Origin: Escherichia coli O157:H7
Lineage (GTDB): Bacteria > Pseudomonadota > Gammaproteobacteria > Enterobacterales > Enterobacteriaceae
Length of the DNA: 64,000 bases
Reading direction: 5' to 3' (one strand)
Assembly: GCF_013167455.1 (NCBI RefSeq)
Contig: NZ_CP038328.1
Position numbers: made by a program. Of the stretch, positions 6,001-9,000 are shown piece by piece; the stretch's first letter is position 1, and each line of letters opens with the position of its first letter.

Positions 6001-9000
6001 AACGCGGTGTGTGCACCGTTGAGTATTGCCACTTTGCGTTCTTTATACGGTTTAATATCGTCAACAATCAGCACGTTGAGCGGATATTTGTCCAGACGCA
6101 GCTCGGTCGCTAAGGATTTCGGTCCCTGAATCACAAACAAGTAAAAGTGTTCAGCGGTGTCGAGGAAACCATCGTGATAACCCAGTTCTTCTTCCAGTTT
6201 AGCCACTTCATCACGCGGATAACCGGTAACGATACGGTCCACCAGCGTAGAACAGAAGCTGTTAGCCTGATCCAGCCATTGAATAAATGCTTCTGGCAGT
6301 GCCCACTCTTGCGCATAGCGCAGCACCAGTTCACGCAACGCGTCGCCATTGTAGTCGATCAACTCACACGGGATGATGATCCAACCTTTATCCAGCGCAC
6401 CGTTGAAATGGCTAAAACGTTCGAACAGCAGACGGGTCAGTTTTGCCGGATAACTTACCGCTGGCGCGTCATCGAATTTATCGCCCGCATGGTAGCTGAT
6501 ACCCGCTTCGGTGGTGTTAGAGAAAACAAAGCGCATTTCCGGGTTGTGCGCCAGTTTCAGGAATTCATCGTATTCACTGTAGACGCTGATTTCACGATTA
6601 ACAGAGCGAATCAGACGCGCGTCGCTGACCGCTTCCCCCTTCTCATTCAGGCCACGGATAATGGTGGTGTACAGACCATCCTGCGTGCTCAGTGACGGCG
6701 GGAATGAAGTTTCAATCGGACGAACAACGACCACACCAGAATTCAGATCGGTGTGCTCATTCAGGAGATCTATTTGCCAGTCAACAAAGGCGCGCAGGAA
6801 GTTACCTTCACCAAACTGAATGATACGTTCTGGATACTGTGCACCGGGAAAATCGCGACGATTTAGTGTTTTCACAATGGGTTCCCTTCTGATTAGTCAT
6901 ACAACCTGTTTGAATTGGTACGACAGGTTAGCAAACTTTAATACGACGAACCCCTGTTTTGATCAACTCCTGATGATTAATGAGCAGTTTTATGAGAAAA
7001 GTGTGGCGCGGATCATGGTTTAATCGAGGAAATACGCCTTTTCCTGGATCATAAAGTGGTAGAACACATTGCATTCAAATCGCGCGGAATGAATAAAGAT
7101 GTCAGACAACTTCCTCACCGTAACGCATAGTGCTGGTACGGTTGCGCCCATCTTTCTTCGAGCGATACAGACAGGTATCGGCTTCGACCATCAATTTATT
7201 AAAGTCATCGGTCAGCGTTCGGTACGATGCGCGACCACTACCGACGCCAATACTTACCGTGAGATAAAGCGTTTTTTGTTGCCAGGTGAATGGTTGCAGT
7301 TCAACGCCTTTACGGATTTTTTCCGCCATTAGCAGACCATCGACAGGATTCACTGACGGCACTGCAACAGCAAATTCTTCGCCGCCCATGCGCGCCACCA
7401 GCCCCTTATCACCGACAATCTTCTGAATATGCCGGGCAAACACGCTTAACACTTTATCGCCACATTCATGTCCATAGTTATCGTTAATACTTTTGAAATA
7501 GTCGATATCAAGTAGCATGACAGTCAGATGTTGTGTCTGTTTCAGCGATGGACTTTTCAGCGCCTCATAAAGACCGGACCGTGAGTAAACCTGAGTCAGA
7601 AAATCAAAGTCGGCTCGCAGCGCAACTTGCTTCATTAGCGAATTGATCGCTGCCACGCTAAAAGAAACCATAATTGGGCATATCGCCATCGTGGCAATAC
7701 CGAGACGTGCGGAGAACATTTGCGGAATGGAGAACGGCGAACCGACCGAGATATCAATCACCGAATTAGCCACCAGTACGATTTCCACCGCACCGGTGAC
7801 AAAGGTCAACAGACATGTTACCTGCGGCGTATAGCGCACTGCACACCAGATTAATGCAGGCAGCGGGAACGCCAGACTCCCCGCTCCGCCAATGACTACC
7901 GAGGCAATAACCGACACAATAAGCGCGATGGCGGGCATCATCTGTTCTGCTTTAAAGCGCGGCAGCACTCCAGGAATAGCCAACGTCAGCATACAAGGCA
8001 CGATCAACACGCCCGTTGAGAATTGCTCACTGAACCAGTCCGCAAGCAAAGGCCAGAAATCCAGACTATCAATACTGACCGAACCAATCGCCCCGACAAT
8101 AGCGCATAATAATGCGGCAATCAGACAGTAATTAAATAGCCGTAAGGCACTTACTGGCTCATATTTATTTTTCCCCAAACGCTTATCCCGCACGACCAGT
8201 AAGGCGACGGTAACAATAAACATCATATTGGAGAAATTGATAGCCAGTGAAACCAGTCCCCATTCGGTGGTTATGGCATCATAAACCAGCATCGCCACAT
8301 AACTGATCGCATAGTAATGCAGTCGATTAAGCCAGACATAGCGGGCAAACACCCCCGCCATTACGCCATTCAGCGGCCAGAAAAGAGAAAGTTCGTGAAC
8401 CAGCCGTAACTCTGCACCAATAAAATAGAACAGCGTGGTTAGCGCAAAAATAGAGATGCTATTACGTAGCAGATGACCTTCCTGGAACACACGGAAAGTT
8501 GAAATGGGGTGTACATGCATTAATTATCTGTCCATACAATTGCGGGTGGCAATTATCTCAACGTAATAAGTAAATTCTCATAAAGGATAGCATGTTCGCT
8601 GACAGCGGCGGCAAATAAAGGTACCCTGGGAATGCTATTTTGTCGTTTTCCGCAATTCTCATGGCTGATTCATCTGTACAACCAGCCAGTGATAGATTAC
8701 CGCCACGATATAACGTTGTTGTTCTTCGCTTAGCGAAACACCATGCGGGATGTTATGCCACTTAGCCAGACAACCGCGACAGCAGGTCGCGGTGGCGTGC
8801 TGAGCGATAAACACCGGATGCCCGCGCATGGGGGTTTGCTTACCGTCATTAGCCGGTAATGCCGGAGCAAGACGTTTAGCGACAAAATCCGCCGCATGTT
8901 GTTCGATGACTGGCGCGCCTTTCTCCAGACAATACTGACGCTCTTTCATGCCCAAACGAAAGCGAGATCGAAATTTTGAACGGGATAAACGCGCGAAGAG

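What the first reader, a model, noticed from the sequence alone, without database searches (positions are those of the whole stretch)
7102..8520. Full-length membrane-anchored DgcF allele
Seen in sequence: the ORF encodes 472 aa with a long multi-TM N-terminal domain before the GGDEF domain. From recall, which may be wrong, the K-12 yneF annotation is shorter, so the sensor domain would be intact here.
Basis: partly seen in the sequence, partly recalled or inferred. Interest (0 to 1): 0.2.

Follow-up and report, generated by a model that had tools for sequence, protein, structure and literature searches.

The report
Intact dgcF gene, truncated in K-12
This E. coli O157:H7 window carries the complete 472-residue membrane-bound c-di-GMP synthase DgcF, which K-12 has lost the front of through a 498-bp deletion; this difference was published in 2014, so the finding is correct but ordinary.

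The parts
7102..8520 (-). dgcF (yneF) coding sequence, 472 aa plus stop: the full-length allele
   Evidence: ORF list. 100% identical to the annotated O157:H7 gene for WP_000558063.1. Differs from the BL21 protein at 2 residues, and from the K-12 remnant at 1 residue (R434L).
7621..8520 (-). N-terminal membrane (sensor) domain, residues 1-300: ten helices, divergent MASE1
   Evidence: AF2 helices 17-40, 49-60, 67-84, 89-111, 122-151, 155-179, 191-210, 213-229, 232-251 and 265-304. 55 of 77 family members hit Pfam MASE1, and two exceed the gathering cutoff. Family HMM versus E. coli DgcE MASE1: E 1.2e-10. hhalign: 90.8% probability.
7138..7614 (-). GGDEF (diguanylate cyclase) domain, residues 303-461
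   Evidence: Pfam PF00990, E 2.4e-40, covering the full 161-position profile. TIGR00254, E 4.7e-38.
7372..7386 (-). Active-site motif GGEEF, residues 379-383
   Evidence: Motif search. Family-conserved D338, D340, N346, D347, H351, D355, R377, K455 and R459 are all present. No RxxD occurs anywhere in residues 300-472.
8088..8585 (.). 498-bp segment present here and absent from K-12: 65 bp upstream plus the first 433 nt of the CDS (144 codons and 1 nt)
   Evidence: The best split of K-12 against the window gives a single solution with no junction microhomology. The segment is present in 4,196 of 5,426 genomes. The exact K-12 junction is present in 1,216 genomes.
8521..8658 (-). yneG-dgcF intergenic region (138 bp) with two sigma-70-like sites (8581->8552 and 8552->8523). 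Both sites lie inside the K-12 deletion.
   Evidence: Promoter scan, which gives consensus matches only. No terminator-like site was found in 6850..9100. Richter 2014 measured weak, mainly RpoS-dependent expression of the full-length gene's upstream region.
8047..8049 (-). TTG codon for Leu158, which K-12 annotation uses as the start of its 315-aa product
   Evidence: It is the first start codon in the K-12 open frame. The translation of b1522 begins LLADWF.

Best explanation
This is the intact, ancestral allele of dgcF (yneF). It encodes an inner-membrane diguanylate cyclase with three parts. A ten-helix MASE1-type membrane domain (residues ~17-300) has both termini in the cytoplasm. Its last helix runs on as one long helix (265-304) into a catalytically competent GGDEF domain, which has a GGEEF A-site and no RxxD I-site. 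The likely mechanism is the usual one for membrane DGCs. Two GGDEF domains must pair to condense two GTP into c-di-GMP. The membrane domain would set that pairing through the connecting helix in response to an unknown membrane or small-molecule signal. With no I-site, the product would not feed back to inhibit the enzyme. K-12 and about 22% of sequenced E. coli carry one derived 498-bp deletion that removes the promoter-like sites, ribosome-binding region, start codon and helices 1-5, which silences the gene. Shown here: the ORF, the domains, the motifs, the deletion boundaries and the allele counts. Shown in the literature: lack of expression in K-12, weak RpoS-dependent expression of the full-length gene, and c-di-GMP synthesis by the Shigella orthologue. 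Inferred: the dimer-alignment mechanism and the nature of the signal.
For: The ORF and its domains are established. The confident model shows a membrane bundle, a long helix and a GGDEF fold. Basic residues at 60/66, 111-119, 188/190, 229 and 297 fall in the loops after helices 2, 4, 6, 8 and 10, which fits an N-in/C-in topology. The K-12 deletion is mapped to window 8088..8585. The K-12 reference gene is 315 aa. Allele counts are 4,196 intact and 1,216 with the identical junction, out of 5,414 genomes holding the locus. Orthologues of 472-482 aa with the same architecture occur in E. fergusonii (88% identity), Citrobacter (84%) and Enterobacter/Lelliottia (about 72%). MASE1 homology rests. 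Literature: the K-12 5' deletion, non-expression in W3110, intact A-site, absent I-site and weak RpoS-dependent expression (PMC4287979); DgcF undetectable in K-12, with the 55989 allele used instead (PMC5635695); S. flexneri dgcF raises c-di-GMP and a GG->AA mutant abolishes this (PMC11327459); a CFT073 yneF deletion lowers biofilm and adherence and is complemented by WspR (PMC3484386).
Against: No activity, expression or topology data exist for this exact O157:H7 allele. The E. coli protein itself has no Pfam MASE1 hit even at E<=10. A profile built from close orthologues alone does not reach DgcE or UhpB, so the MASE1 assignment depends on intermediate sequences. The promoter-like sites are consensus matches only, 5 found against 2.9 expected by chance. 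No terminator separates yneG from dgcF, so read-through transcription in K-12 is not formally excluded by sequence alone.
Confidence: 0.93

Rival explanations
1. The difference from K-12 is only an annotation choice, a different start codon on the same DNA. The 472-aa call would then be an over-extended ORF and the real product the short GGDEF protein.
For: K-12's reference annotation starts at an internal TTG. The ribosome-binding sequence before the ATG at 8520 is weak (GGACAG).
Against: K-12 DNA physically lacks 498 bp. The first 300 residues are conserved across genera at 72-88% identity and across 240 representative clusters at E<=1e-10. They fold confidently. PGAP calls the K-12 copy a pseudogene.
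Confidence: 0.01
2. The long form is derived. O157:H7 and other strains would have gained a membrane domain by insertion or fusion, with the K-12 short form ancestral.
For: None beyond the bare two-state difference.
Against: E. fergusonii, Citrobacter, Enterobacter and Lelliottia all have the long architecture. 77% of E. coli genomes have it. The K-12 junction cuts a codon and a helix mid-way and leaves no start codon until a TTG 13 codons downstream. All 1,216 carriers share one identical junction.
Confidence: 0.02
3. The N-terminal region is a stand-alone, DgcF-specific membrane anchor unrelated to any known sensor domain, as first described in 2014, and serves only to tether the cyclase.
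For: There is no direct Pfam hit. [quoted passage not shown] UhpB's MASE1 is not detected by the family profile.
Against: 55 of 77 relatives hit Pfam MASE1, and two exceed the gathering cutoff with near full-length collinear matches. The family HMM hits the DgcE MASE1 at E 1.2e-10, while 102 decoys score 1.8 bits or less. hhalign gives 90.8% probability over 216 columns. The same domain is fused to histidine-kinase modules in P0186 and P0263, which is typical of an input domain. Conserved polar and Pro/Gly motifs (FWPxN, N98, W162, GGxG, PALxWCA) argue for more than an anchor.
Confidence: 0.12

Closest known systems
DgcF/YneF of EAEC O104:H4 (55989, 2011 outbreak strain) and EHEC O157:H7 EDL933, as described by Richter et al. 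2014
   Same: It is the same gene at the same locus, with the same 472-aa architecture, an intact A-site and no I-site. The window is 99.9-100% identical to O157:H7 genomes.
   Different: Nothing of substance; the window simply is this allele.
E. coli K-12 dgcF (b1522, 315 aa annotated; a PGAP pseudogene)
   Same: The 3' 986 nt and the downstream region are about 99% identical. The shared residues differ only at R434L.
   Different: K-12 lacks window 8088..8585, which includes the promoter-like sites, start codon and helices 1-5. It is not expressed.
MASE1-containing signalling proteins of E. coli (DgcE/YegE, PdeA, PdeF, UhpB)
   Same: All have a ~300-aa, ten-helix N-terminal membrane domain ahead of cytoplasmic output domains. 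Profile-level homology to the DgcE MASE1 is shown. The ten-TM description comes from PMC6510439.
   Different: DgcF is too divergent for the Pfam model and is not linked to UhpB by these profiles. DgcF joins MASE1 directly to GGDEF with no PAS domains. The DgcE partners RdcA/RdcB have not been examined for DgcF.
S-components of ECF transporters (RibU, FolT, ThiT, BioY, BtuM)
   Different: There is no sequence similarity. Only half of the domain is covered. There is no ECF T/A module nearby. Foldseek sees nothing. This is a resemblance of a predicted model, not membership.

Membership tests
GGDEF-domain diguanylate cyclases | GGDEF domain scoring above Pfam's curated threshold | tested here: met
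   PF00990 at 138.4 bits against a cutoff of 23.8, covering profile positions 1-161 of 161. TIGR00254 at 130.5 bits against 37.4.
GGDEF-domain diguanylate cyclases | Intact GG(D/E)EF active-site motif and the conserved metal/GTP-binding residues | tested here: met
   GGEEF lies at residues 379-383. D338, D340, N346, D347, H351, D355, R377, K455 and R459 all match the columns that are at least 90% conserved in 77 relatives.
GGDEF-domain diguanylate cyclases | Synthesis of c-di-GMP from GTP | not testable with these tools
   This has been shown only for the S. flexneri orthologue, by LC-MS/MS with a GG->AA control (PMC11327459), and indirectly in CFT073 (PMC3484386).
GGDEF-domain diguanylate cyclases | RxxD allosteric I-site (present in many members but not required for membership) | tested here: not met
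   There is no RxxD in residues 300-472. The sequence before the motif is KIVGDKGLVARM. This agrees with Richter 2014.
DgcF/YneF orthologue group | Position between uxaB and yneG-glsB-sad, and near-identity to annotated DgcF | tested here: met
   The neighbours are confirmed. The region is 99-100% identical to annotated genes in O157:H7 and BL21.
MASE1 membrane sensor domain (Pfam PF05231) | The protein itself scores above the Pfam gathering threshold | tested here: not met
   Neither the full protein nor residues 1-306 give a MASE1 hit, even at E<=10.
MASE1 membrane sensor domain (Pfam PF05231) | Homology to genuine MASE1 domains demonstrable through profiles or intermediate sequences | tested here: met
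   Relatives are found at E 1e-15 to 1e-57 over residues ~20-306. 55 of 77 of them hit PF05231, and P0204 (40.6 bits) and P0218 (31.6 bits) exceed the cutoff of 29.8. The family HMM hits the E. coli DgcE MASE1 at E 1.2e-10, with decoys at 1.8 bits or less. hhalign gives 90.8% probability, E 1.2e-6. UhpB was not reached.
MASE1 membrane sensor domain (Pfam PF05231) | About 300 aa with ten transmembrane segments, N-terminal to varied cytoplasmic output domains | tested here: met
   The AF2 model shows ten helices in residues 17-304. The family includes both GGDEF and hybrid histidine-kinase outputs. The definition is taken from PMC6510439.
ECF-transporter S-component fold | Six-helix substrate-binding membrane core, sequence-family membership, and partnership with ECF T/A subunits | tested here: inconclusive
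   [not shown]

The most novel reading that the evidence does not exclude
The DgcF membrane domain, and by extension the MASE1 family it belongs to, may contain an ECF S-component-like six-helix core. That is the fold bacteria use to bind vitamins and other small molecules inside the membrane. If so, MASE1 sensors, whose signals are almost entirely unknown, could be membrane-embedded small-molecule receptors and not mere anchors or protein-docking platforms. DgcF, being MASE1 joined directly to GGDEF, would be the simplest E. coli system for finding such a ligand. I vaguely recall, without having verified it, that Pfam may already place MASE1 in the same clan as these transporters. That would reduce the novelty.
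Probability: 0.3. Interest if true: 0.4.

Novelty: already known. Interest (0 to 1): 0.1.

Why it matters
For this window the finding matters little. It is the normal, majority allele of a core E. coli gene, and the contrast with K-12 has been in the literature since 2014. It is a useful reminder that K-12 is the exception here. K-12-based catalogues count a DGC that K-12 cannot express, whereas O157:H7 and about 77% of E. coli encode a complete enzyme with reported effects on biofilm, adherence, acid resistance and invasion in UPEC and Shigella. The additions made here could help anyone studying DgcF signal input. These are the deletion's presence in 22% of genomes through one shared junction, the MASE1 assignment, and the S-component-like predicted fold.

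Tried and rejected
- Pfam on the N-terminal 306 aa alone at E<=10 gave only a chance SAYSvFN hit.
- A profile of the 7 close orthologues found neither DgcE nor UhpB, by HMM or by hhalign. The link needs the 77-member or 24-member profile.
- UhpB's MASE1 was never detected.
- Foldseek against the PDB with the membrane-domain model found nothing (best E 0.36, TM about 0.17).
- The afdb50 library was unavailable, so I could not check whether AlphaFold models annotated as MASE1 are the nearest neighbours.
- A profile search of PDB sequences gave one chance hit at E 0.43.
- A test for internal duplication, first half against second half by hhalign, was negative (probability 0.6%).
- A 100-bp junction probe could not separate the alleles because the tool joins nearby pieces. 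A 50-bp probe with 25 bp on each side solved this.
- No microhomology or flanking repeat explains the deletion.
- The two J Bacteriol 2016 papers most likely to tabulate DgcF alleles and domains (Povolotsky & Hengge; Hengge et al. nomenclature) are not held. I therefore could not check whether they already report the wider distribution or the MASE1 assignment.
- Held papers that mention both DgcF and MASE1 were found. In the one I read, the MASE1 mention refers to DgcE, not DgcF.

Full report
**Observation.** The ORF exists as described. It spans window 7102..8520 on the minus strand, has an ATG start at the most upstream start codon of its frame, and encodes 472 aa. Pfam finds one domain, GGDEF, at residues 303-461 (E 2.4e-40, 138 bits against a cutoff of 23.8). 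NCBIfam agrees (TIGR00254, E 4.7e-38). The first 300 residues are strongly hydrophobic, with about eight Kyte-Doolittle peaks. The gene lies between uxaB (5424..6875) and yneG-glsB (8659..9944), all on the minus strand. This is the yneF/dgcF position of K-12. The stretch 6900..8700 is 100% identical to E. coli O157:H7 strain ECP19-598, where PGAP annotates the same 472-aa protein as a 'sensor domain-containing diguanylate cyclase'.

**Comparison with K-12.** In NC_000913.3, dgcF (b1522) is 948 nt, or 315 aa. The reason is a real difference in the DNA. K-12 matches only 72% of the 1,801-bp query, in two pieces. Testing every possible split gives one best solution. K-12 equals the window sequence with 8088..8585 (498 bp) removed, plus 10 substitutions elsewhere and no microhomology at the junction (GCTATC|TTGGTTCG). 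The missing segment covers the last 65 bp of the 138-bp yneG-dgcF intergenic region and the first 433 nt of the coding sequence (144 codons and one base). What remains in K-12 is an open frame of 344 codons. Its first possible start is a TTG corresponding to Leu158 of the full protein (window 8047..8049), which gives the annotated 315 aa. PGAP marks the K-12 gene as a pseudogene 'missing N-terminus'. Both sigma-70-like sites found upstream of the intact gene (8581->8552 and 8552->8523) lie inside the deleted segment. These are consensus matches only, with 5 found in the region against 2.9 expected.

**Which state is ancestral.** The long form is ancestral.
- The locus is present in 5,414 of 5,426 complete E. 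coli genomes.
- 4,196 genomes hold the 498-bp segment.
- A 50-bp probe with 25 bp on each side of the K-12 junction cannot seed a match in intact genomes. It finds 1,216 genomes, 1,212 of them at 99% identity or more.
- The two classes add up to 5,412, so the locus is essentially bi-allelic, with one shared deletion event.
- Carriers include K-12, W3110, ATCC 8739 and J53, and also many human, pig, calf, frog and seawater isolates. Intact genomes include BL21, W, O104:H4 and O157:H7.
- Outside E. coli, proteins of 472-482 aa with the same architecture occur in E. fergusonii (88% identity over the membrane domain), Citrobacter (84%) and Enterobacter/Lelliottia (about 72%).

**What is already published.** Richter et al. 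2014 (PMC4287979) state the following:
[quoted passage not shown] - Expression is very weak and mainly RpoS-dependent.

Sarenko et al. [quoted passage not shown] S. flexneri dgcF raises c-di-GMP, which a GG->AA mutation abolishes, and it affects acid resistance, invasion and plaque size (PMC11327459). Deleting yneF in CFT073 lowers biofilm in glycerol medium and adherence, and the heterologous cyclase WspR complements both defects (PMC3484386). The finding is therefore correct and already known. My counts add one correction: the deletion is not specific to K-12 but is shared by about 22% of complete genomes.

**The protein.**
- The GGEEF motif lies at residues 379-383.
- The residues that are at least 90% conserved across 77 relatives (D338, D340, N346, D347, H351, D355, R377, K455, R459) are all present.
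- No RxxD occurs anywhere in residues 300-472.
- An AF2 model built on a 77-sequence alignment is confident (pLDDT 90.8, pTM 0.84). It shows ten helices between residues 17 and 304, the last of which (265-304) continues straight into the GGDEF fold.
- Basic residues cluster in the loops after helices 2, 4, 6, 8 and 10. This fits an N-in/C-in topology with the catalytic domain in the cytoplasm.
- The K-12 deletion removes helices 1-4 and most of helix 5, and the annotated K-12 start lies inside helix 6.

**Identity of the membrane domain.** Pfam finds nothing in residues 1-306, even at E<=10. An exhaustive phmmer search of 1.8 billion representative proteins finds 417 relatives at E<=1e-3 and 240 at E<=1e-10. 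Nearly all are 460-490 aa, which fits the same domain followed by GGDEF. Several lines of evidence then link the family to MASE1:
- Of 77 aligned members scanned individually, 55 hit Pfam MASE1 (PF05231) at E<=0.1, with a best E of 3.2e-11.
- Among ten members inspected, two exceed the gathering cutoff (40.6 and 31.6 bits against 29.8) with matches covering almost the whole 299-position profile. Two others are hybrid histidine kinases carrying the same domain.
- An HMM of the family's membrane domain hits the MASE1 region of E. coli DgcE at E 1.2e-10 (38.9 bits, collinear over about 250 positions). The best of 102 shuffled or reversed decoys scores 1.8 bits.
- hhalign of a 24-sequence profile against DgcE residues 1-330 gives 90.8% probability, E 1.2e-6, over 216 columns.
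- Pfiffer et al. 2019 describe MASE1 as a ~290-300-aa region with ten transmembrane segments (PMC6510439), which matches the model.

I conclude that the domain is a divergent MASE1. The caveats are that the assignment needs intermediate sequences, that close orthologues alone do not reach DgcE, and that UhpB was never reached. This mildly corrects the 2014 statement that the domain is unique in E. coli. I could not check whether later papers that are not held already say so.

**Mechanism.** The best-supported reading is that DgcF is a membrane-anchored cyclase whose two GGDEF domains are brought into a catalytic dimer through the long connecting helix, under control of the MASE1 domain. It lacks product inhibition because it has no I-site, and it is expressed at a low level in stationary phase. 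The domains and motifs are shown here. Activity and expression come from the literature on orthologues. The dimer-alignment step and the signal are inferred. No terminator-like structure separates yneG from dgcF, so co-transcription with sad-glsB-yneG is possible but untested.

Noticed in passing
[not shown]
   Followed up: partly
window 8088..8585; E. coli genome collection: The 498-bp 'K-12' deletion of dgcF has the identical junction in 1,216 of 5,426 complete E. coli genomes, including many human, livestock, frog and seawater isolates. It is therefore not K-12-specific, as Sarenko 2017 states.
   Followed up: yes
proteins P0008, P0009; locus L008 2681..5967: Some E. coli encode proteins with the DgcF membrane domain (97% identity) followed by a HipA C-terminal domain in place of GGDEF. 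Separately, strain LI60C3 has a different deletion that removes the 3' half of dgcF, uxaB, yneE and part of tam, bringing the remnant next to hipBA. Independent lesions of dgcF therefore occur. I did not check whether a deletion of this kind produced the fusion proteins.
   Followed up: partly
window about 12456..13571 (+): yneK is broken here into ORFs of 217 aa and 89 aa. PGAP marks the corresponding gene in the matching O157:H7 genome as a pseudogene with an internal stop.
   Followed up: partly
window about 21137..22027 (-), inferred from L007 4412..5302: A second diguanylate cyclase gene, dgcZ (ydeH), lies about 13 kb from dgcF in the matching O157:H7 record, beyond the mar locus. The window coordinates were mapped from the record and not checked directly.
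   Followed up: no
window 8521..8658 (-): No terminator-like hairpin lies between yneG and dgcF, and sad, glsB, yneG and dgcF share one strand. dgcF may therefore be partly co-transcribed with glutaminase and GABA-shunt genes. This is intriguing given the reported effect of Shigella dgcF on acid resistance.
   Followed up: no
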